Virus record (IMG/VR): IMGVR_UViG_3300011443_000001
DNA from: a virus
Length of the DNA stretch: 64,000 nucleotides
Strand: one strand, 5' to 3'
Below, piece after piece: positions 74 through 61,409 of the stretch. The notes beneath the pieces are model-generated. The model made no database searches. It was not told where the DNA came from and saw only the letters and a program-made list of their open reading frames with translations. Position 1 is the first letter of the stretch; each line of letters opens with the position of its first letter. A program made the translations under genes and the position numbers.

Positions 74-841
74 ATGAAGAACCTAGTCGTGGGGTATGCC
101 AGCCGGCCGGACGTGAACAACCGCGGAACAGAATATCTGTCTCGCTTCGGAACGTTCATGCCGCTGCATCCACACTTTTTCAATATGAGCGACAACCAAA
201 GCTACTACAAACCAGGGACGGACTTGAAGTTTACTCTTCTCTCCGCCGAGGACGAAACCGCATTGTTTACCAAGGCCCGCGAAAGTGGCGACCGGGAAGC
301 GCGCGAGTTTCTAATCACCAACCATCTGCTTTTCGCGGCGACCTACGCGCGGAAAATCGTGAAGGGCAAGCTGCCGGATAACGAAGTCGTGAGCGCGGCG
401 AACTTCGGGCTGATGAAGGCGTTCGAAGCGTTTGACCACACGCGCGGCAAGCGGTTCTCGGCGTATGCCAAGCCGTATATCCGGTCCGAAATCGCCACGC
501 TCTGGCGTTCGAAGGACATCGTGGACTACCACGGCAATTTTCCGGACGCCCCGGACGACAACGTGGCGCTGCTGGATGAGGACGCCGGCGTGGTGCAGCC
601 CGATGTGGAGGGCGACAGCCGGGAGATGGTTTTGCGATGTCTGGAGTCCGCCAGAAGCGTGCTGAACGCCAAGGAAGCAAAGGTCCTCCGCATGTTCTAC
701 GAGGACAACCTGAACTTCCGGGAAATCGGGGACACGCTCGACATCACGCGCGAGCGAATTCGGCAGCTTCACAACAGCGCGTTGAATAAGTTGCGTCGCG
801 CCTTTGTGCGCGCTGGCGTGGACGCCCAGGGGGAGGTATGA
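74..841 (+). CDS. Phage-encoded sigma-70-family RNA polymerase sigma factor
   Basis: Region 2 (SAANFGLMKAFEAFDHTRGKRFSAYAKPYIR) and region 4.2 HTH (NFREIGDTLDITRERIRQL) recognisable; region 3 short. Confidence 0.9.
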   Translation: MKNLVVGYASRPDVNNRGTEYLSRFGTFMPLHPHFFNMSDNQSYYKPGTDLKFTLLSAEDETALFTKARESGDREAREFLITNHLLFAATYARKIVKGKLPDNEVVSAANFGLMKAFEAFDHTRGKRFSAYAKPYIRSEIATLWRSKDIVDYHGNFPDAPDDNVALLDEDAGVVQPDVEGDSREMVLRCLESARSVLNAKEAKVLRMFYEDNLNFREIGDTLDITRERIRQLHNSALNKLRRAFVRAGVDAQGEV

Positions 842-41784: not shown

Positions 41785-43716
41785 TCACATATCGTTGTCG
41801 TCCAGCGCCGTGTCCAGGTCCTCGAATCGGTTCGTCCGGTCGCAGCCGATGTCGCGCGCCTGGGGGTCCCACTCCGACTGGTGCTCGATGGGCTCCACGT
41901 CGGTGTCGCCGGCCATGCTGGGCGTAAACCCGAACCCGCGGCGCGCGGCCTGCAAAAGCAGGGTGAACGCGTCCGCGCTGTTCGGAGACTTGCCGGCGTG
42001 CCGGGACTTGTATTCTTTTTTGGACTCGACGTGTGACTTTTTTCCAATCATTCGGAACAGCCGGTCCGTAAGCTCCGGATACAGCTCGGACGTATCCAGT
42101 CCGAATGCGCAGAACATATACTTGAACTCGAGCCACCGTCGCAGAGCGAACCACAACTCGGAATTCACCCGGTCATAAAGTTCCTTGGCCGTGTCTTCAT
42201 CTTCGATAAACACCCGCGCGTCCGTCGCGCCCTCGTAAAAGTTCACGCCGACGACCGACGGCGACCACCGAGCCCGCAGGTAATCGTAAACTCCCTGACC
42301 GTTGCCCGTCCGGTCCAGCGCGAGGTGCTCGGGTCGAATCTTCATTGCGCGGCAGAGCCGCATGACTTCGTCTCCGACGACGAACGTGTCGCCATTCGGT
42401 ATGATGAAAATTTTCTCCGCGAGCAAAATGTGTTTCGGGGACTTATGCCCGTTGCGGTCCATAAAATAAATCGTTTCGCCCTCCGGATGCGCAAGGCTCG
42501 GACCCATACGCAGCCCGGTCGCCCGACCGAACAGCCCCTTGCACATCATGCACGCGTCACCGCCCTCGAGCGCAAGGTCCGCGCCCGCACACGGCTCCGG
42601 CACGTCATACCAAATCACCTCGCACTTCAGATTAACCGTTAGCCCTTGTGGAATCACCGCGAGCGCGACACCGATGGGCGGAAAACATCCGCGCACCATC
42701 GTCCAGTATCCCGGCGAGTCGAGCCCGCCAGCGTTGGCGATGATTTGCTGCATGCCCTCGTAGGTCTGCATGCCGGGATAAATCTCCCGCTTCTCTTTGA
42801 TGTTTTCGGACTGCATCGCGTCCAGGCGGACAATCCACCATCCGCGGACGGACATCCAATCGAAGTGCAGGTCAGGGTCGAAACTTCCCCAGCCGAACTT
42901 CGGCTCGCAGCGAACGCCTACGTCGTTGTTCCGGTCGTCCGGGTTGAACGCGCCGTAAACTTTCAGCCCGCCTCGATTCGAGGCGTTGGACAGCAAGTTG
43001 TCAATATCGTGCCACAGCCCTTTTGGCAGGTTGGAAATTTCGTCCACGAACACGAACAGCCGGCTCGTCTCGCCAAATTCCGGATGCGGAGTCTTGCGCC
43101 GAAAACGCGCGACACCTTGCAGCCGGCCCGCCGCCTTTTTCCCTTGCGGGATTACGACGCCCGCGATAGAGCCGCGCCGCTTGCGCAGGTCAAGACCGAT
43201 AAACAGCTTTCCGATTTCCCCCGGCAGCGGGATAGCCGAGTTTCGGTGCAGTTCGACGAGCTGCGAAAACAGGTTGGCTTCGAGATGGTCTTCACTCGGC
43301 CCTAGGACTCGGACCGACGTGTATTCGGGGTCGCGCAGCCACTCCAGAAAGAACCGAATCGCCATGCTGAAGGACTTCGACTGCTTGCCGGCGCCCATCA
43401 GCAATCCGAAGTCGTGTTCGTCAACGGCCGACCATACGCGCTTGGTGTTGTTCGGCCGCGGGTCAAACTGGTTCGGGGTCCACAACAACTGGGCGGCTTC
43501 TTCCATCGCGCCATGGTTCATGGCCCAGTGCAGGAGAATGTTTAGAAGCTCAAACGCCTTGGCCTTGGTTTCGACCGACTGCTTGGCCATCGCCGGCGTG
43601 GTCTGTGCTGCCCAGGCGCGAACGAGCCGCGCGGCGTCGTAAATCTCGCCGGCGTGAATGAGTTTCGCAGTCTCGCGAAGGAGTCCCTTAACGGGGTGTG
43701 ACTCTGGTAAAGCCAT
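41785..43716 (-). CDS. terL: Terminase large subunit
   Basis: Walker A-like MGAGKQSKS, Walker B FVFVDE, RNase H-like GADLALEGGD, ALDRTGNG, SPNSADA. Confidence 0.85.
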   Translation of the reverse strand: MALPESHPVKGLLRETAKLIHAGEIYDAARLVRAWAAQTTPAMAKQSVETKAKAFELLNILLHWAMNHGAMEEAAQLLWTPNQFDPRPNNTKRVWSAVDEHDFGLLMGAGKQSKSFSMAIRFFLEWLRDPEYTSVRVLGPSEDHLEANLFSQLVELHRNSAIPLPGEIGKLFIGLDLRKRRGSIAGVVIPQGKKAAGRLQGVARFRRKTPHPEFGETSRLFVFVDEISNLPKGLWHDIDNLLSNASNRGGLKVYGAFNPDDRNNDVGVRCEPKFGWGSFDPDLHFDWMSVRGWWIVRLDAMQSENIKEKREIYPGMQTYEGMQQIIANAGGLDSPGYWTMVRGCFPPIGVALAVIPQGLTVNLKCEVIWYDVPEPCAGADLALEGGDACMMCKGLFGRATGLRMGPSLAHPEGETIYFMDRNGHKSPKHILLAEKIFIIPNGDTFVVGDEVMRLCRAMKIRPEHLALDRTGNGQGVYDYLRARWSPSVVGVNFYEGATDARVFIEDEDTAKELYDRVNSELWFALRRWLEFKYMFCAFGLDTSELYPELTDRLFRMIGKKSHVESKKEYKSRHAGKSPNSADAFTLLLQAARRGFGFTPSMAGDTDVEPIEHQSEWDPQARDIGCDRTNRFEDLDTALDDNDM

Positions 43717-43876
43717 TCATCGAGTGAGCAAGACGCCAGTAAGCATGCCCCAACGAGAAAAAGTAGGGCGGGCGTTGTTTACCCCGAATGGCAAGCCAGA
43801 GCAGGTCCAACGCAATGGCGGTCGGAACCGTCGATAGCAAGAACCACAGCTTCAGATTTTCCCACCAGTTTCGCAT
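43688..43876 (-). CDS. Small membrane protein
   Basis: ATG at 43876 right after U-tract; hydrophobic helix. Confidence 0.45.
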   Translation of the reverse strand: MRNWWENLKLWFLLSTVPTAIALDLLWLAIRGKQRPPYFFSLGHAYWRLAHSMNGFTRVTPR

Positions 43877-43879
43877 ACC

Positions 43880-44262
43880 AAAAAAATGCAGAGTGCCGGG
43901 CAAACCGGCATCACCGTTCTGAGTGAACGTGTCTTTGGTTTAGACGAACCCTGCACAAAGTAAGCGGCGTGTTGTATTGAGCCGTTGTCGCCGACTATAC
44001 GCGTGACGGGGTGAGCATTCCCTGCTCGCTGCCACGATTTCCCCGCCGACAGCCCGGAAGCTAAAACGCCGCTTGCCGAGGTCCACAGTGTGATTACACC
44101 TTCGGCCAAAACGTTCCGTGCTGTCGAAAATGGTAACGGGAGCGGGCGGTAGCTAACCGGATGTCCCGCGCCCCGACCGAGAGAGCTGCGCACTTCGCTC
44201 TCGGCTTTTTCCCAGGTCGCCTTTAGGGCGTAGACTGGACTATTCCCGAGCACACGGCCCGG
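43880..44262 (-). ncRNA. Candidate structured non-coding RNA(s) downstream of tRNA
   Basis: No credible ORF; many complementary stems incl. 12/13-bp helix, 9-bp long-range helix, multi-branch junction ending in U7. Confidence 0.55.
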
Positions 44263-44267
44263 AAAAT

Positions 44268-44342
44268 TGGTTGCAGGAGACGGAGTTGAACCGCCGACCT
44301 TCTGGTTATGAGCCAGACGAGCTACCACTGCTCCATCCTGCA
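44268..44342 (-). tRNA. tRNA-Met (CAT), initiator-like, CCA encoded
   Basis: TGCAGGATGGAGCAGTGGTAGCTCGTCTGGCTCATAACCAGAAGGTCGGCGGTTCAACTCCGTCTCCTGCAACCA folds into a full cloverleaf. Confidence 0.95.
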
Positions 44343-44355
44343 TTGCCATGCGCTG

Positions 44356-44631
44356 TTAGGTGACCGTGACGGTCACAGTGCCCTGCCCGGGCTCGGTCGG
44401 AAGAGTCGGACCGTGCATCACCGGACCTTCCGGACCCAAGCCGACGATATTCTCAGCCCGAACGCGCCAGTCATAGACCTGCGGAACGGGGTTAAAAATG
44501 TCGAGGGACGGAACCGCCGTATTGGCCTTGAAAACAAATGGTCCCCCATTAACGCTTTCATAGACCTTGTAGTTGTTGACCTGTTCACCCGCCGGATTTG
44601 CGGGCCACGCCAAATGGATAGTAGTTGCCAT
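44356..44631 (-). CDS. Fibronectin type III / Ig-like protein
   Basis: LAW.....YKVY...YDWRVRAENIVGLGP. Confidence 0.75.
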   Translation of the reverse strand: MATTIHLAWPANPAGEQVNNYKVYESVNGGPFVFKANTAVPSLDIFNPVPQVYDWRVRAENIVGLGPEGPVMHGPTLPTEPGQGTVTVTVT

Positions 44632-44636
44632 GCCAC

Positions 44637-45344
44637 CTAAGAAGTGTGCGAACTTTCCGATTTGTCAATGGTCGTATGATGAAGTCTGTAAACCGTTGAT
44701 GCGTGCCAGAAACGCTCGCCAGACGGGTTAAGAATTCCGCCCTCGCGCAACCCGTTGGCAACTTGCAAATATGTCCAGCCCTCGCGCCGGCGCGCGTGGA
44801 TGTAGTTCAAAACGTGCCGCTCATCCGCCTGGACCGCCGGGTCCGGATGCAGCCCGTAGGGCCGGCGCCCGCCGCACGGCCGTCCGGTCCTGGCCTTTGT
44901 GCGCCGGCGCCCGTCTTGCAGCTTCTTAACGATTACGGCCTTCTCCCATTGCGCGATGACGCCGAGCATCTGCCGCAGCATGACGCGCGACGGGTCGCCG
45001 TCGGCCACTGTTAGTTCCTGCCCGGAGTCCGCCGCGAAAACCTTGACGCCGCGCTCCGCGCACCGCACAAAGAAAATTTCCTGGGCCATCAGGTCACGCG
45101 CGACGCGGTCGGACCGTTCCACAACGATGGCTTCAACATTAAAGGCCGGAGCCAGCTCGAGCATCTCAAGCAGCATGGTCCGGTCTTCAACGTTGACGCC
45201 CCCGGACTGGTTTTCCGAGAAGGTGCGACAGATGCTCATGTCGTGTTGTTCGGCGAACTGTTTGACCGTATCGCGCTGGCGGTCGAGCCCGCACTTGTCA
45301 ACCTGTTCTCGGGTGCTGACGCGCAGATACGAAAAAACTCTCAT
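44637..45344 (-). CDS. Serine recombinase (resolvase/invertase family)
   Basis: YLRVSTREQ catalytic Ser motif, ERSDRVAR, C-terminal HTH-like region. Confidence 0.9.
   Translation of the reverse strand: MRVFSYLRVSTREQVDKCGLDRQRDTVKQFAEQHDMSICRTFSENQSGGVNVEDRTMLLEMLELAPAFNVEAIVVERSDRVARDLMAQEIFFVRCAERGVKVFAADSGQELTVADGDPSRVMLRQMLGVIAQWEKAVIVKKLQDGRRRTKARTGRPCGGRRPYGLHPDPAVQADERHVLNYIHARRREGWTYLQVANGLREGGILNPSGERFWHASTVYRLHHTTIDKSESSHTS
44643..44668 (-). promoter_or_regulatory. Short-spacer motif TTGACA-N14-CACACT-TCTT
   Basis: Upstream of FN3-tRNA-ncRNA-TerL unit. Confidence 0.7.
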
Positions 45345-45841
45345 GGCTGTATCCTTTGGCCGGTGTCCGGGTCGTAGCCGATATACGCGGAAAAGTCCCC
45401 CGCGGTCATTCTGTTCCACGCGAACCAAATGTCCTTGAGCTGTTGCCGGCTGTGACAGGCCCGTGTCAGCAGGTGCGTAGCCGGGAACGAATACAGCCGC
45501 TCAAAGTCGGTCGTCGGACGACTTCCAAAAATGTTCGCGGGCGCCCACTTGTTCGATTGCAGCTCGGCGAACGCGCAGCACCAGCCCTCGCCCCAGTTCG
45601 GAAACCGATGTATCAGCGGCGCGCGGAACGCCACCGAATGGAAAACCTCGTGCCACAGCCCGTCAATGGGCTGGTCCCATCCCAGTGTTATCCGGGCGCA
45701 CGTATTCTCTCGCCAGGGCGGATACCACAGTCCGCCCGCGCCGTTTTCCAAGCGCCAAATAATTTCGTCCAACTCGACAAACTCCCAGGACGGCCCGACC
45801 CAGGTCTTCGCTTCGGCGATGATGTGGTGAAACGGACTCAT
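45341..45841 (-). CDS. Putative zinc metallopeptidase (HExxH...E)
   Basis: WHEVFH...WGEGW. Confidence 0.55.
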   Translation of the reverse strand: MSPFHHIIAEAKTWVGPSWEFVELDEIIWRLENGAGGLWYPPWRENTCARITLGWDQPIDGLWHEVFHSVAFRAPLIHRFPNWGEGWCCAFAELQSNKWAPANIFGSRPTTDFERLYSFPATHLLTRACHSRQQLKDIWFAWNRMTAGDFSAYIGYDPDTGQRIQP

Positions 45842-56495: not shown

Positions 56496-56532
56496 TTGAC
56501 ATCGGCCACGACCTGCACCACATTACGCCATG
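56496..56532 (+). promoter_or_regulatory. Leaderless-type promoter TTGACA-N17-CACATT-acgcc-ATG
   Basis: Third copy, ATG is helicase start. Confidence 0.7.
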
Positions 56533-58542
56533 AGCAACGAGACAACGACGGAGATTAAGATTGAAACCCTGCTGCCCTGGGGTGCGCCGAAGCGCGTGCG
56601 CCTGCAAGACGGCACCGAGCGCATCCTTCGGACCTGCTTTTCCACGCCGTCATCCTTCTGGGACGCCTGGAAGCAAAATAAGCCCGCGCTCCAGCAAGCG
56701 GGCATCTCGCCGAAGCGCCAGCCGGACGGCGCCTGGATAGTGAATTGGTGGGCCGCGGTTGACCCGGTCGCCGCCAAGGCGGAGCAGGCCAAGCGTGCCG
56801 TTGTCGCCGAGGCCAGCCGCGCGACCGATGCGGCCATCGACCTGCCCCGCCCGGCCGGGCTGAACTACCTGCCGTATCAGAAAGCCGGCGTGGCCTACGG
56901 GCTGGACTGCTGGGCGCACAAGCGCGGGGTTCTCATTGGCGACGAAATGGGTTTAGGAAAAACAATTCAGGCCATCGGGCTCATCAATTGCACGCCGTCA
57001 ATCAAGTCTGTCATCATCGTTTGCCCGAACACGCTCAAGCTGAACTGGGCACGCGAGCTGAAGAAATGGCTCGTCCGGCCGATGTCGGTTGAGGTTCAGT
57101 ATTCGAACAAACCCTTTTCCCGCGCGGACATCGTCATCGTGAATTATGACGTGGTCCACAAGTTTCTGACGGACCTTTCGAACCGTGACTGGGACCTGCG
57201 CATTTGTGATGAGAGCCAATACATCAAGAACCCCAAGGCACGCCGCACGAAGTCCACGCTGGCCATCCGCGCTGCCCGCAAGGCTGCGCTGACGGGAACG
57301 CCCATCGAGAACCGGCCCATCGAGTTGTGGCCCGTCCTGAACGACCTGGACCCCAGCGCGTGGCCCAAGGGCGGGTTTTTCCAGTATGCTCGCCGCTATT
57401 GCGCCGCCAAGCAAAACGGTTTCGGCTGGGACTTTTCCGGTCACAGCAACGAGGCGGAGTTGCAGCATCGGCTGCGGTCGTCCATCATGATACGCCGCTT
57501 GAAAAAGGACGTGTTGAAGGAACTGCCTGCGAAGCAACGCCAAGTCATCGAGTTGGACACCGCCGGTTGCAAAGAGCTGCTCGAGCTGGAGGAGTCGATG
57601 GTGTCCGAACGCGAGGCCGCGCTTGTTGAGTTGCGCGCACGCGTCGAGCTGGCCCGCGCTGGTGAGTCGCGCGAAGACTACGCGGAGGCAGTCCACGCGC
57701 TGCGCAGCGGGCAAGGCGCCGCGTTTGAGGACATGGCTGAGTTGCGGCACAAGGTCGCCGAGGCCAAGCTTCCGCAATGCCTCGCGTTCATCGAGGACGC
57801 GATGGAATCCGGCAAGGTGATAGTGTTCGCGCATCACCTGGACATTGTCGCGGGCGTCGTCGCGAAGTTTCCCCAGGCGGCGGTCATCACGGGCAACACG
57901 CCCGCGCCGAAGCGCATGGAACAGGTTGACCGCTTCCAGAATGACCCCGAGTGCAACATTTTCGTGGGCAACCTTGCCGCGGCTGAAGGGCTGACCCTGA
58001 CCGCCGGCTCGCACGTTATTTTCGTCGAGATGCAATGGGTGCCCGGCAAGCATGCGCAGATGGAAGACCGCGCGCACCGCATTGGGCAGAAGGACAGCGT
58101 GCTGTGCAGCTACCTCGTGCTCGAGGGCTCGCTTGACGCGCATATGTCGCGCACCATCGTGGAAAAGCTGAATGTCATTGACGCGTGCCTGGACAAAATC
58201 ACGGACTGGACCGAAGCCGACGTGGAGGAAGTCGAGCCGGTGACCAAGGTCCGCCTGACCTTCGAGCGCGTCGCTGCCGAAGCGAAGCTGGTGTCTGACC
58301 GCTGCGTGGAGCTGGTCCACTTCGGGATGAAGATGCTTGCCGGCGTGTGTGACGGAGCGTGCAAGCTGGATGACGTGGGCTTTTCCGCGGTCGATGTTCA
58401 AATCGGGCACGCGCTCGCGCACCGCGCGACCATTACCCAGAAACAGGCCGCGCTGGGCTGGCGAATACTTTGTAAATATCACCGCCAGCTCGGCTCCGAA
58501 TTCATCGCAGAGCTGAAGGCAGCGGCAGCAATAAAACAATGA
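56530..58542 (+). CDS. SNF2-family (HARP/SMARCAL1-like) helicase/ATPase
   Basis: DEMGLGKT, CDESQYIK, LTGTPIENRP, QMEDRAHRIGQ. Confidence 0.95.
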   Translation: MSNETTTEIKIETLLPWGAPKRVRLQDGTERILRTCFSTPSSFWDAWKQNKPALQQAGISPKRQPDGAWIVNWWAAVDPVAAKAEQAKRAVVAEASRATDAAIDLPRPAGLNYLPYQKAGVAYGLDCWAHKRGVLIGDEMGLGKTIQAIGLINCTPSIKSVIIVCPNTLKLNWARELKKWLVRPMSVEVQYSNKPFSRADIVIVNYDVVHKFLTDLSNRDWDLRICDESQYIKNPKARRTKSTLAIRAARKAALTGTPIENRPIELWPVLNDLDPSAWPKGGFFQYARRYCAAKQNGFGWDFSGHSNEAELQHRLRSSIMIRRLKKDVLKELPAKQRQVIELDTAGCKELLELEESMVSEREAALVELRARVELARAGESREDYAEAVHALRSGQGAAFEDMAELRHKVAEAKLPQCLAFIEDAMESGKVIVFAHHLDIVAGVVAKFPQAAVITGNTPAPKRMEQVDRFQNDPECNIFVGNLAAAEGLTLTAGSHVIFVEMQWVPGKHAQMEDRAHRIGQKDSVLCSYLVLEGSLDAHMSRTIVEKLNVIDACLDKITDWTEADVEEVEPVTKVRLTFERVAAEAKLVSDRCVELVHFGMKMLAGVCDGACKLDDVGFSAVDVQIGHALAHRATITQKQAALGWRILCKYHRQLGSEFIAELKAAAAIKQ

Positions 58543-60231: not shown

Positions 60232-60414
60232 ATGAACCCAGTTTTCTACCGAGAGTTGCGAGAAATTATTTTGTCGGCGAGACGCCGCGAGCAGACCTTG
60301 GAAGTCGCGCGCCGTTTTACCTGGACCGGCCGGCACATGGTTACGACCAGTGACGACCGCCCCCGTATACCCCAACCAAATTCCGATAATGAAATCGTCG
60401 GACCAACCTGTTAA
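60232..60414 (+). CDS. Hypothetical protein
   Basis: TAATG coupling to next gene. Confidence 0.45.
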   Translation: MNPVFYRELREIILSARRREQTLEVARRFTWTGRHMVTTSDDRPRIPQPNSDNEIVGPTC

Positions 60415-61409
60415 TGGCCATGAACAACTTTCAGGACCTACACAACCTAATCAAAACAATGAAAGAGACCGACCCACGCAACCGAATCAAAGAGATGAAA
60501 GACGCCGCGAGGGCACCCGCATGTCAGACCCCAACAGATATCCCGCCTGCCTTCACATCAACCCCGCCGGCGTTTGGCGCCGTGCTGCCTGGGCACCCTG
60601 GCAAGACTCAGAGTGGTTTGCCGAGTGGAAGCGGCTCGCTGGAATTACCTCCGCAAGTGAGCCCCTTGCGTATCTACATCCTCGGCCCGATGCGGGGACA
60701 TGACCAATACAATTTTCCCGCTTTCTATGCGATGGCGGAAAAGCTTTTGGCCGCGGGCTTTGACCCGGTGAACCCGGCGGACCTGGACCGCCAGGACGGT
60801 TTCCGAATTGAGTCATTGGACAGGGGCCACGACTTCACGAAGTATCCCGCGGGCATGGACGCGGAGCAAGTGGTGCGGCGTGACTTGGCCGCCATCATGG
60901 GCTGCGCCGGCTACGTCGCGCTTGCTGGCTACGAGAAGTCCAAAGGTGCGACCGCCGAGAAGTCGGTATTTGACTGGCGCTGCGCGAAGCGTCTGGTGTT
61001 GAATCCTGGCGGTCAGTTTGTGCAGGTGGCTAACGACCTCGCGCCTGAGAAGCCGACCAACCCCAAGGACATCGCCGGCTCCAAGAAACCCCCGCTGCGT
61101 TTGCTGCCCACGGTCGCGCTTCTGTATCTCTCGCGCGTGATGGCCTTAGGCGCCAAGAAGTATGGCGAGTGGAACTGGCGCGCTTCGAAGGTCCGCGCCA
61201 CCATCTACGACGAGGCCGCGTTGCGTCACATCTTCGCGCTACTCGACGGGCAGGACACGGACGAAGAGTCCGGGCTGCCGCACGAGGCGCACATTATGGC
61301 GTGCATGGCCATCAAGCTGGACGCGCAAGCGTGTGGCCAGCTTATCGACGACCGCAACAAGAGCGGCAACGTTCCCAATCTCATCAAACAACTCACCGAA
61401 AAATCGTAA
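60414..61409 (+). CDS. DUF4406 (NDT-like) domain fused to dATP/dGTP diphosphohydrolase domain
   Basis: RIYILGPMRG..YNFPAF...NPA...DL..I..C......W/YEKSKGA.AE; KKPPL.L...GAKKYGEWNWR......AALRH...D.ESGLPHEAH. Confidence 0.85.
   Translation: MAMNNFQDLHNLIKTMKETDPRNRIKEMKDAARAPACQTPTDIPPAFTSTPPAFGAVLPGHPGKTQSGLPSGSGSLELPPQVSPLRIYILGPMRGHDQYNFPAFYAMAEKLLAAGFDPVNPADLDRQDGFRIESLDRGHDFTKYPAGMDAEQVVRRDLAAIMGCAGYVALAGYEKSKGATAEKSVFDWRCAKRLVLNPGGQFVQVANDLAPEKPTNPKDIAGSKKPPLRLLPTVALLYLSRVMALGAKKYGEWNWRASKVRATIYDEAALRHIFALLDGQDTDEESGLPHEAHIMACMAIKLDAQACGQLIDDRNKSGNVPNLIKQLTEKS

What the first reader, a model, noticed from the sequence alone, without database searches (positions are those of the whole stretch)
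43880..44130. Candidate new structured ncRNA with a long-range 9-bp pseudoknot-like helix and a terminal multibranch junction
Seen (minus strand): 12 of 13 pairs between 44114-44126 and 44047-44059; nested gccg-aggt/acct-cggc helix (44098-44106 with 44075-44082); a perfect 9-bp complement AAGCGGCGT (44066-44074, inside that loop) with ACGCCGCTT (43962-43970) about 100 nt downstream, which would be a pseudoknot; hairpin gagca/tgctc inside cgggg/ccccg; then a junction closed by 43948-43955 with 43887-43894 carrying three hairpins (gtct/agac, cgttc/gaacg, tgccgg/ccggca), followed by U7. No credible ORF. Knowledge: large ornate phage ncRNAs (e.g. GOLLD, ROOL) often sit beside tRNA genes. Inference: a co-transcribed, RNase-processed structured RNA or ribozyme upstream of TerL; I cannot match it to a family I recognise.
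Basis: partly seen in the sequence, partly recalled or inferred. Interest (0 to 1): 0.8.

Follow-up and report, generated by a model that had tools for sequence, protein, structure and literature searches.

The report
Double-pseudoknot RNA in phage tRNA array
A roughly 170-base RNA with two pseudoknots, kept intact by compensating mutations across a family of uncultured soil and sediment phages, sits between tRNA and tRNA-like genes just upstream of the DNA-packaging genes; it matches no catalogued RNA family and its job is unknown.

Summary
Most belong to a real, conserved RNA at window 43957-44130 (minus strand, 174 nt). I found 33 members in phages whose large terminase is 47-100% identical to the window's. 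The fold has five parts:
- a two-part stem H1;
- a variable hairpin H2;
- a second pseudoknot, P3a/P3b, with a 0-1 nt linker;
- a small hairpin, P5, seen only in the close relatives.

On 27 sequences, 94% of cells pair and 28 of 35 pairs show compensatory change; 0 of 500 shuffles reach this. The pseudoknot was not in the search model and still pairs in 98.7% of cells. No reading frame is conserved, and Rfam 15 gives no match.

The RNA lies in an array: tRNA-Met, a CCA-ending module, this RNA, then a tRNA or tRNA-like unit, separated by A/U-rich spacers. The array sits upstream of a gene confirmed by fold as the large terminase.

My best reading is a stand-alone small RNA released by tRNA-processing nucleases; its function is unknown. 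Expression, processing and catalysis are not shown. Earlier notes of this scan describe other pseudoknotted RNAs in phage tRNA arrays on other DNA, but not this family.

The parts
43957..44130 (-). Core conserved RNA (174 nt): UUUU lead, H1, H2, PK 5' strand, P3a/P3b pseudoknot with inner hairpin P4, P5 hairpin, A/C-rich linker, PK 3' strand, ACUUU tail
   Evidence: Covariance-model hits at 150-183 bits in close relatives and 17-103 bits in distant ones. Covariation. No conserved reading frame.
44114..44126 (-). H1 5' strand. cgacag (44126-44121) pairs with ctgtcg (44052-44047); cggaa (44118-44114) pairs with ttccg (44059-44055); between them is a 2x2 internal loop, with A opposite G at one of its two positions in all nine close relatives
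   Evidence: All 11 pairs show compensatory change; 95.5% of cells pair on 27 sequences.
44047..44059 (-). H1 3' strand
   Evidence: helix 1.
44075..44106 (-). H2 hairpin: base GCCG/CGGC with a tip of variable length
   Evidence: 100% paired. The base changes to GCUG/CAGC, GCCC/GGGC, CCCC/GGGG and GCGG/CCGC in other members.
44066..44074 (-). Long-range pseudoknot (PK), 5' strand AAGCGGCGU
   Evidence: Pairs with 43962-43970. The PK was not in the search model, yet 98.7% of cells pair and 6 of 9 pairs are compensatory. 11 distinct variants in 33 members, all 8-10 Watson-Crick pairs.
43962..43970 (-). Long-range pseudoknot (PK), 3' strand ACGCCGCUU, preceded by an A/C-rich linker and followed by ACUUU
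44002..44045 (-). Second pseudoknot. P3a is cgggg (44045-44041) with ccccg (44011-44007). P3b is cgtgg (44036-44032) with tcacg (44006-44002). L1 is AAAU. The inner variable hairpin P4 is 44027-44013. The linker between the two 3' strands is 0 nt.
   Evidence: helices 4 and 5. All 23 hand-curated members keep both helices with a 0-1 nt linker, in 9 and 18 distinct variants. One member, L205, has a plain hairpin instead.
43980..43996 (-). P5 hairpin AGUCG-GCGACAA-CGGCU
   Evidence: 95.6% paired among the 9 close relatives. Only 78.9% paired on all 27 sequences. The loop motif GCGAnAn is kept, but the stem is not clear in distant clades.
43887..43954 (-). Acceptor GCAGGGU/ACUCUGC plus A73 with no CCA; D arm GUCU/AGAC; anticodon arm CGUUC-ACUCAGA-GAACG; T arm GCCGG-UUUGC-CCGGC.
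   Evidence: The MFE structure is a cloverleaf at -28.5 kcal/mol. Neither ARAGORN nor the Rfam tRNA model calls it. Its 5' part UCGUCUAA...GACAC recurs after the RNA in L221, L237 and L245. True tRNA-type versions stand in L204 (directly after the RNA) and in L025 (about 85 nt further on).
43880..43886 (-). U7 run after the cloverleaf, just before the AUG (43876) of a 62-aa ORF
   Evidence: Sequence. The terminator scan finds no terminator-like site on this strand here.
44131..44267 (-). Upstream module 2, ending in ACCA and followed by UUUU. It is the subject of a separate finding of this scan.
   Evidence: Its 18-nt hairpin loop ACAUCCGGUUAGCUACCG is also present in L021.
44268..44342 (-). 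tRNA-Met (CAU)
   Evidence: ARAGORN and Rfam, 67.3 bits. A tRNA-Met lies upstream of the RNA in 10 of 12 distant loci.
41785..43716 (-). Large terminase gene, downstream on the same strand
   Evidence: AlphaFold2 model with mean pLDDT 83.7. Foldseek finds Sf6 gp2, T4 gp17, D6E TerL and HK97 TerL at E 3e-13 to 4e-6.

Best explanation
Window 43957-44130 (minus strand) is the gene for a compact, doubly pseudoknotted small RNA of a previously uncatalogued family. The family is carried by roughly 72-kb uncultured soil, sediment and groundwater phages.

The gene is one unit of a same-strand array: tRNA-Met, a CCA-ending module, this RNA, then a tRNA or tRNA-like unit. The array stands upstream of the packaging genes.

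Shown: the fold is under selection, the strand, the non-coding nature, and the array context.

Inferred:
- The array is transcribed as one precursor.
- The RNA is cut out by the host's tRNA-maturation nucleases. RNase P would cut at the 5' end of the downstream tRNA-like unit, and an RNase E or Z type enzyme would cut in the A/U-rich spacers AUUUU and ACUUU.
- The released RNA acts in trans through its three-dimensional fold, as a binding partner of a protein or another RNA of the translation or RNA-processing machinery. It would not act by antisense pairing, because what is conserved is helices with changing sequence plus a few short loops.
- Where the RNA abuts a start codon, the same 3' cut would leave a nearly leaderless mRNA for the first packaging gene.
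For: Structure:
- 99.4% of cells pair and 16 of 39 pairs are compensatory on 9 sequences.
- 94.4% of cells pair and 28 of 35 pairs are compensatory on 27 sequences; 0 of 500 shuffles reach this, and slid controls give 31-48%.
- The PK was not part of the model and is 98.7% paired.
- 33 members carry 11 PK variants.
- The P3a/P3b arrangement holds in all 23 curated members.

Strand: G-U pairs are frequent in the helices. On the other strand they would be A-C mismatches.

Non-coding: no frame is open across members, and lengths run from 138 to 186 nt.

Context:
- Every hit is on the terminase strand and upstream of the terminase.
- tRNA-Met lies upstream in 10 of 12 distant loci.
- In several relatives the preceding unit ends in CCACCA and is followed by AUUU.
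- Following units are a cloverleaf, tRNA-like, or a true tRNA.
- There is one copy per genome.

Adjacency to a start codon is not conserved. It is 5-7 nt in L008-L016 and L021, about 85 nt in the window, and 2-3 kb from the terminase in distant clades. That argues against a dedicated cis-regulator.

Weak expression hint: a 204-nt metatranscriptome contig spans 44008-44211.
Against: - There is no direct evidence of a discrete RNA, its ends, or processing. The RNA-library contigs are low depth, may be DNA carry-over, and do not end at the predicted boundaries.
- In two sub-lineages the RNA sits 5-7 nt before a start codon with no Shine-Dalgarno sequence. That also fits a cis-acting leader.
- No partner protein was identified. 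The window genes I scanned with Pfam show no recognisable RNA-binding or RNA-processing enzyme.
- The 0-1 nt linker of the P3 pseudoknot is sterically awkward for a classical coaxial pseudoknot formed within one molecule (my geometric reasoning, not tested).
- Many terminase-family loci with 4 kb of upstream sequence gave no hit. The RNA is therefore not universal in the phage group, or is too diverged, or lies further away.
Confidence: 0.55

Rival explanations
1. It is a cis-acting 5' leader of the packaging and late operon. The fold would stay attached to the mRNA and control it, by stabilising a processed 5' end, by setting up translation of a start codon that lacks a Shine-Dalgarno sequence, or by modifying RNA polymerase as the HK022 put RNAs do.
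For: - It is always on the strand of the terminase and upstream of it.
- In the L021/L145/L168 type the terminase AUG lies 6 nt after the RNA. In L008-L016 the AUG of the small membrane ORF lies 5-7 nt after it, and no Shine-Dalgarno sequence is present.
- The phage encodes its own sigma factor, so late transcription is phage-controlled.
Against: - Adjacency is not conserved. In the window a cloverleaf and U7 are inserted. In L017 a 115-nt tRNA-like unit intervenes. In most distant members a tRNA or tRNA-like unit follows within a few bases or some tens of bases (L205 and L214 show none), and the terminase is 2-3 kb away.
- The gene that follows differs between lineages.
Confidence: 0.2
2. It is a self-cleaving ribozyme of a new class that cuts the array transcript at its own boundary, as HDV-like theta ribozymes do next to phage tRNAs.
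For: - Double pseudoknots are typical of small ribozymes (established knowledge).
- It sits directly after a CCA-ending unit.
- Theta ribozymes occupy this context in gut phages (PMC10879173 abstract).
- A few unpaired motifs are conserved: L1 ..AAU, the loop GCGAnAn, and an A opposite G in the H1 internal loop of the close relatives.
Against: - The strand order is H1 5', H2 hairpin, PK 5', H1 3', P3, PK 3'. This does not fit the HDV order P1, P2, P3, P3', P1', P4, P2'.
- No Rfam ribozyme model matches, even at E up to 10.
- No unpaired nucleotide is strictly invariant across all clades.
- Cleavage could not be tested here.
Confidence: 0.1
3. It is a self-assembling RNA. P3b or P3a, and possibly the PK, pair between molecules and give dimers or rings, in the way of phi29 pRNA or the ROOL and GOLLD cages.
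For: - The 0-1 nt linker between the 3' strands of P3a and P3b, together with a 2-5 nt L1, holds in all 23 curated members. It fits coaxial stacking in a domain-swapped assembly better than a classical pseudoknot within one molecule (my geometric reasoning).
- Covariation cannot tell pairing within a molecule from pairing between molecules.
- ROOL and GOLLD, phage RNAs near tRNA islands, form homo-oligomers (PMC12286853).
Against: - The argument is purely geometric. A bent pseudoknot within one molecule is not excluded, because the other loop is 2-30 nt.
- One member lacks the P3 pseudoknot (L205).
- The Rfam scans, which cover every family in the library, found nothing here.
Confidence: 0.08
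4. It is a DNA-level site (pac/cos, attP, or an invertase site) or a chance set of inverted repeats, not an RNA.
For: - It lies between a serine recombinase gene (44637-45428) and the terminase, where pac/cos or att sites are often found.
- The single-sequence folding z-score is only about -2.
Against: - Compensatory changes keep pairing in five helices while the sequence changes.
- G-U pairs mark one strand.
- Two crossing helices are maintained. DNA protein-binding sites do not behave this way.
Confidence: 0.02

Closest known systems
Small stable RNAs of unknown function in phage tRNA clusters: T4 rnaC and rnaD (species 1 and 2), and T5 RNAI, RNAIII, RNA1, RNA2H and others
   Same: - They are non-tRNA RNA genes set head to tail among phage tRNA genes on the same strand, some ending in CCA, with function unknown (annotations).
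- In T4 the order is tRNA, a CCA-ending RNA (rnaD), then a second RNA. This resembles tRNA-Met, the CCA-ending module, then this RNA.
   Different: - There is no sequence or structure match. Model R2 scores at most 6.7 bits anywhere in the T4 tRNA region with filters off.
- T4 rnaC carries a T arm and an acceptor-like end.
- T5 RNA2H is closed by a long terminal stem.
- This RNA has neither feature, and has two pseudoknots.
GOLLD and ROOL RNAs (Rfam; cryo-EM in PMC12286853)
   Same: - They are phage and prophage structured RNAs, often near tRNA islands. GOLLD env-38 lies downstream of a Met-tRNA.
- They have multiple pseudoknots, no known protein partner and no known function.
   Different: - They are 500-800 nt or more and form cages. 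This RNA is 138-186 nt.
- The Rfam scan finds neither family here.
HDV-like theta ribozymes next to phage tRNAs (Kienbeck et al. 2024, PMC10879173)
   Same: A pseudoknotted small RNA placed directly beside tRNA genes in uncultured phages, proposed to help tRNA 3' end maturation.
   Different: - The order of strands does not fit the nested double pseudoknot of HDV.
- This RNA is about twice the size.
- No cleavage evidence and no Rfam HDV hit.
Bacterial RNase P RNA core (P2-P3-P4 pseudoknot)
   Same: - The local topology is similar: stem 5' strand, hairpin, pseudoknot 5' strand, then a pseudoknot 3' strand preceded by an A-rich linker.
- In some clades the PK reads AAGCGGGG/CCCCGCUUA. From memory, E. 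coli P4 reads AAG(U)CCGGG/CCCGGCUUA.
- The tRNA context would make sense for such an RNA.
   Different: - Here H1 closes immediately after the PK 5' strand and the large domain lies between H1 and the PK 3' strand. In RNase P it is the reverse.
- The PK sequence is not conserved (GAGACAACG, GAGCGGGAGU and GAGCGGAAU in other clades).
- There is no bulged U and no CR-I or CR-V motif.
- No RNase P model matches.
phi29 pRNA (packaging RNA)
   Same: A phage RNA of about 170 nt whose pseudoknot-type pairing is essential. In the close clade this RNA lies next to the packaging ATPase gene.
   Different: - pRNA pairs between molecules through two loops and has a long 5'/3' terminal helix. This RNA has no terminal helix.
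- The Rfam scan found nothing here.
- In distant clades the RNA is 2-3 kb from the terminase, inside a tRNA array.

Membership tests
Any Rfam 15 family | Covariance-model score at or above the family's gathering score | tested here: not met
   Only the tRNA model matches in the window. At E up to 10 on 43600-44500 the only matches are the tRNA-Met and one sub-threshold match on its antisense strand. Five relatives' loci gave nothing on the RNA at E up to 1.
HDV-like / theta ribozyme | Strand order P1, P2, P3, P3', P1', P4, P2' (nested double pseudoknot) with the cleavage site at the 5' end of P1 | tested here: not met
   The observed order is H1 5', H2 hairpin, PK 5', H1 3', P3a 5', P3b 5', P3a 3', P3b 3', PK 3'. 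Only 5-7 nt lie between the PK 5' strand and the H1 3' strand, which leaves no room for a P3/L3.
HDV-like / theta ribozyme | Self-scission in vitro | not testable with these tools
   Needs a bench assay.
RNase P RNA | P4 with the conserved CR-I and CR-V sequences and a bulged U; P2 3' strand placed just before the P4 3' strand, after the P5-P15-P18 domains | tested here: not met
   The PK sequence varies between clades and has no bulge. H1 closes straight after the PK 5' strand. No RNase P model hit.
tmRNA (one-piece or two-piece) | tRNA-like domain with a CCA end plus a tag reading frame that ends in a stop codon; detection by ARAGORN or Rfam | tested here: not met
   The RNA ends in ACUUU, not CCA. 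No frame is conserved. ARAGORN and Rfam report no tmRNA.
T4 rnaC / rnaD and T5 stable RNAs | Sequence and structure similarity to the annotated RNAs | tested here: not met
   Model R2 with filters off on the T4 tRNA region gives a best score of 6.7 bits, and only 3.8 bits over rnaC. T5 RNA2H has a different architecture. T5 was not searched with the model.
GOLLD / ROOL | Match to the Rfam models; length of 500 nt or more | tested here: not met
   No hit. Members are 138-186 nt long.
tRNA (for the 3' 'junction' at 43887-43954 only) | Cloverleaf with a 7-bp acceptor stem, D, anticodon and T arms | tested here: met
   The MFE structure is a cloverleaf. The arm boundaries were read.
tRNA (for the 3' 'junction' at 43887-43954 only) | Canonical 7-nt T loop, G18 G19 in the D loop, U33, and recognition by tRNA finders | tested here: not met
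   The T loop is 5 nt (UUUGC), the D loop AAACCAA has no GG, and position 33 is C. Neither ARAGORN nor RF00005 calls it, even at E up to 10.

The most novel reading that the evidence does not exclude
The RNA is not a passive passenger of the tRNA array but a new functional class. One possibility is that it self-assembles: the P3 helices with a 0-1 nt linker would form between molecules and give dimers or rings, as in phi29 pRNA or the ROOL and GOLLD cages, acting on the neighbouring tRNA-like RNAs or the packaging motor. The other is a new self-cleaving ribozyme that punctuates the array and creates the leaderless terminase mRNA.
Probability: 0.15. Interest if true: 0.85.

Novelty: new variant of a known kind. 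Interest (0 to 1): 0.6.

Why it matters
Phage tRNA clusters have been known for fifty years to hold stable RNAs with no assigned function, such as T4 species 1 and 2 and the T5 RNAs. GOLLD and ROOL, which also lie near tRNAs, were recently found to form RNA-only cages.

This family adds a small, well-defined case from soil and sediment phages. It has a strongly supported fold with two pseudoknots, clear boundaries, swappable arms (the H2 tip and P4), and a fixed place between tRNA-type units next to the packaging genes. At 140-185 nt it is small enough for chemical probing, crystallography or cryo-EM, and cleavage or assembly assays.

Such work could show what non-tRNA members of phage tRNA arrays do. 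Candidate roles are RNA processing, decoys for host factors, translation takeover, or assembly. If function stays unknown, it remains one more orphan motif.

Tried and rejected
- Phage GenBank records: blastn of the gap found no match.
- The window's own assembly is not held. The nearest record is a 15-kb fragment with the same sequence.
- A 14-mer motif scan of viral contigs gave mostly chance hits.
- L174 scored 20.7 bits but lacks H1, so I rejected it.
All of them lack the U-rich flanks and look like chance, so no host or prophage was found.
- My own helix-descriptor scan separated strands well in the terminase loci (47 hits on the plus strand against 4 on the minus strand at score 33 or more). 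It still gives false positives in coding DNA and only noise in the AT-rich T4 and T5 regions.
- RNase P and two-piece tmRNA readings were considered because of CCACCA ends, GGUAACG and GGAAAG motifs in the preceding module, and AAG...CUUA in the PK. I rejected them on topology, on PK variability and on the lack of model hits.
- T4 rnaC shares a 10-mer (ACGGAACGUU) with the window RNA, but it has a tRNA-like build and no model match.
- A possible switch between P3a and a downstream CCCG is not conserved (checked by eye on the sequences).
- Metatranscriptome contigs cover only 44008-44211 and 44235-44627. Nothing can be concluded from the uncovered parts or from the contig ends.
- The paper listing about 10,000 viral candidate RNAs (PMC10690425) has no supplements held, so I could not check whether pieces of this RNA are in it.
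- Profile search of the terminase alignment against PDB sequences gave nothing. The fold search was needed instead.
- No binding prediction was run.

Full report
**What is there.** The finding lies in a 393-nt gap on the minus strand. The gap runs from a tRNA-Met (44268-44342; ARAGORN and Rfam) to a small ORF (AUG at 43876) that overlaps the start of a 643-aa ORF (41785-43716).

On its own the sequence is only mildly unusual. The MFE z-score is -2.2 for the gap and -2.03 for the core, against -1.54 for the opposite strand. Rfam 15 finds only the tRNA, even at E up to 10.

**Relatives.** The window is an uncultured phage of the roughly 72-kb class. Three IMG/VR contigs are 97-100% identical to it, and between them the gap differs at only two places.

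The 643-aa protein has hundreds of homologues at 47-86% identity. It has no Pfam, PHROG, NCBIfam or PDB-sequence match. Its AlphaFold2 model (mean pLDDT 83.7) matches large terminases: Sf6 gp2, T4 gp17, D6E, HK97 and E217 (E 3e-13 to 4e-6). The 'upstream of TerL' part of the reading is therefore right.

Upstream of these terminase genes, all contigs with 75-90% terminase identity that have enough flank carry a 160-174-nt homologue of window 43957-44130.

**Structure in close relatives.** An alignment of nine close relatives (A3) supports six helices:
- H1 in two parts, separated by a 2x2 internal loop in which an A faces a G in all nine;
- H2 with a variable tip;
- P3a (cgggg/ccccg);
- P5.

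In this alignment 99.4% of cells pair and 16 of 39 pairs carry compensatory change. None of 500 shuffles reach this, and sliding the partner columns gives 33-44% paired.

**Structure in distant clades.** Covariance models built from these sequences (R1, R2) found more distant members in metagenome loci whose terminase is 50-58% identical. All lie on the terminase strand, 2-3 kb upstream.

On 27 sequences (A7), 94.4% of cells pair and 28 of 35 pairs are compensatory. The covariation score is 0.537 against 0.170 for shuffles, with 0 of 500 shuffles reaching it. The PK was not part of the model, so its alignment is not biased toward pairing. It is 98.7% paired, with 6 of 9 pairs compensatory.

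A helix-descriptor scan and reading by eye added five more diverged members: L025, L204, L205, L245 and L189. Their PK sequences are quite different (GAGACAACG/CGUUGUCUC, GAGCGGAAU/AUUCCGCUC).

Across 33 members there are 11 PK variants, each with 8-10 Watson-Crick pairs. The P3a/P3b arrangement, with a 0-1 nt linker between the two 3' strands, holds in all 23 curated members, in 9 and 18 sequence variants. One member, L205, has a plain hairpin there instead.

No reading frame is open across members, and lengths vary from 138 to 186 nt. Frequent G-U pairs fix the transcribed strand as the window's minus strand.

The segment 43887-43954 folds as a cloverleaf. It has a 7-bp acceptor stem, a D arm, an anticodon arm and a T arm. 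Its loops are not canonical and it has no CCA; U7 follows it. tRNA finders do not call it.

It is not part of the conserved RNA.
- In L008-L016 the RNA is followed within 5-7 nt by the AUG of the small ORF.
- In the L021 type it is followed within 6 nt by the terminase AUG.
- In L017 a different 115-nt unit follows, ending in CCACCA.

The 5' part of the cloverleaf (UCGUCUAA...GACAC) recurs after the RNA in L221, L237 and L245, where the unit ends in GCCA. In L204 a regular tRNA stands directly after the RNA, and L025 has a similar tRNA about 85 nt further on.

**Context.** The RNA is one unit of an array. A tRNA-Met lies upstream in 10 of 12 distant loci scanned. In several relatives the unit just before the RNA ends in CCACCA followed by AUUU; in the window it ends in ACCA followed by UUUU. 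The RNA itself ends in A(C/A/U)UUU. There is one copy per genome.

A serine recombinase gene and a small ORF that I read, without a test, as fibronectin-type-III-like lie upstream of the array.

One sediment metatranscriptome holds a 204-nt contig spanning 44008-44211 and a 393-nt contig spanning 44235-44627, at low depth. This is compatible with transcription across the junction between module 2 and the RNA. It proves neither transcription nor ends.

**How it probably works.** The selected fold, the strand, the non-coding nature and the array setting are shown.

The following steps are inferred. The array is made as one precursor. tRNA-maturation nucleases cut at the tRNA-type units and in the A/U-rich spacers. 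That releases this RNA as a discrete species of about 150-180 nt. It then acts through its fold.

The pattern of conservation points to recognition of shape by a protein or RNA partner, or to catalysis, rather than antisense pairing. Helix geometry is kept while sequence changes, two arms (the H2 tip and P4) are freely variable, and only a few short unpaired motifs persist: L1 ..AAU, the loop GCGAnAn, the A/C-rich linker before the PK 3' strand, and the A opposite G in the H1 internal loop of the close relatives. In lineages where a start codon follows within 5-7 nt and no Shine-Dalgarno sequence is present, the same 3' cut would leave a nearly leaderless packaging mRNA.

I put 0.55 on this stand-alone reading. 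The rivals are a cis-acting leader (0.2), a new ribozyme (0.1), a self-assembling RNA (0.08) and a DNA site or chance (0.02).

The self-assembly idea rests on geometry. With 0-1 nt between the 3' strands and 2-5 nt in L1, the two P3 helices cannot stack coaxially within one molecule. They could do so between molecules.

**Comparison with known RNAs.** There is no membership in any Rfam family.
- HDV-like and theta ribozymes fail on strand order.
- RNase P RNA fails on topology, on PK variability and on the absence of the conserved motifs.
- tmRNA fails on the missing CCA end and tag frame.
- The T4 tRNA region, which holds rnaC and rnaD, gives no model match; T5 RNA2H has a different architecture by eye, and T5 was not searched with the model.
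- GOLLD and ROOL are much larger and do not match.

In kind, the RNA belongs with the orphan structured RNAs of phage tRNA clusters. Earlier notes of this scan report other pseudoknotted RNAs in phage tRNA arrays on other DNA. A k-mer look-up found no look-alike of this one outside its own window.

**Distribution.** Members come from soil, rhizosphere, freshwater-sediment and groundwater metagenomes and viral contigs. The host remains unknown.

Noticed in passing
window 43887-43954 (-): An uncalled tRNA-like cloverleaf with UCA at anticodon positions 34-36 but C at position 33, a 5-nt T loop and no CCA, followed by U7. Homologous units in relatives end in GCCA, and in L204 and L025 the unit is a regular-looking tRNA.
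   Followed up: partly
L224:900-1158; also L219, L201, L236, L237, L221 and L208 (sequences printed): A recurrent module of about 70 nt, GUCGAGACGGGGUUUCGCG[variable hairpin]CCCGAAAGGACGCAUGGCCCCGCACCAGCUCGAC, lies between tRNA-Met and the RNA in seven distant relatives. The Rfam scan of two of them (L221, L214) found nothing there. It looks like another conserved structured RNA.
   Followed up: no
L012:2545-2664, L221:1399-1653, L250, L214: The unit directly before the RNA ends in ...AGCCAAAGAAAnnCUCCACCA and contains CUCGGUAACGGG. Its 3' end resembles that of T4 rnaD (CAGCAGAAACGGCGCACCA), so it may be an rnaD-type RNA.
   Followed up: no
window 44131-44267 (-) and L021:2560-2640: Module 2 carries a hairpin whose 18-nt loop ACAUCCGGUUAGCUACCG is identical in the window and in L021, while the stem differs (GCGGG/CCCGC against GGGAGG/CCUCCC). 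The window copy ends in ACCA.
   Followed up: no
L025:1546-1622: A tRNA-shaped gene with CCA that ARAGORN does not call. Its anticodon loop appears to be 8 nt (UCGCUAUA), whereas the L204 homologue has a normal Cys (GCA) loop.
   Followed up: no
window 43688-43876 (-) and L008-L016: A conserved ORF of about 62 aa overlaps the terminase start; I take it to be hydrophobic from reading the translated sequence, without a test. In relatives its AUG lies 5-7 nt after the RNA and no Shine-Dalgarno sequence is present. It may be a small terminase substitute or a membrane protein.
   Followed up: no
window 74-841 (+), 56530-58542 (+), 60414-61409 (+): The phage encodes a sigma-70 family factor (regions 2 and 4), an SNF2 helicase, and a DUF4406 plus dATP/dGTP diphosphohydrolase N-terminal domain protein. 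The last suggests modified DNA bases.
   Followed up: no
window 44356-44631 (-) and L235:577-1193: A small ORF that looks fibronectin-type-III-like to me (no domain match was obtained) is conserved next to the array. In L235 it lies between tRNA-Met and the RNA.
   Followed up: no
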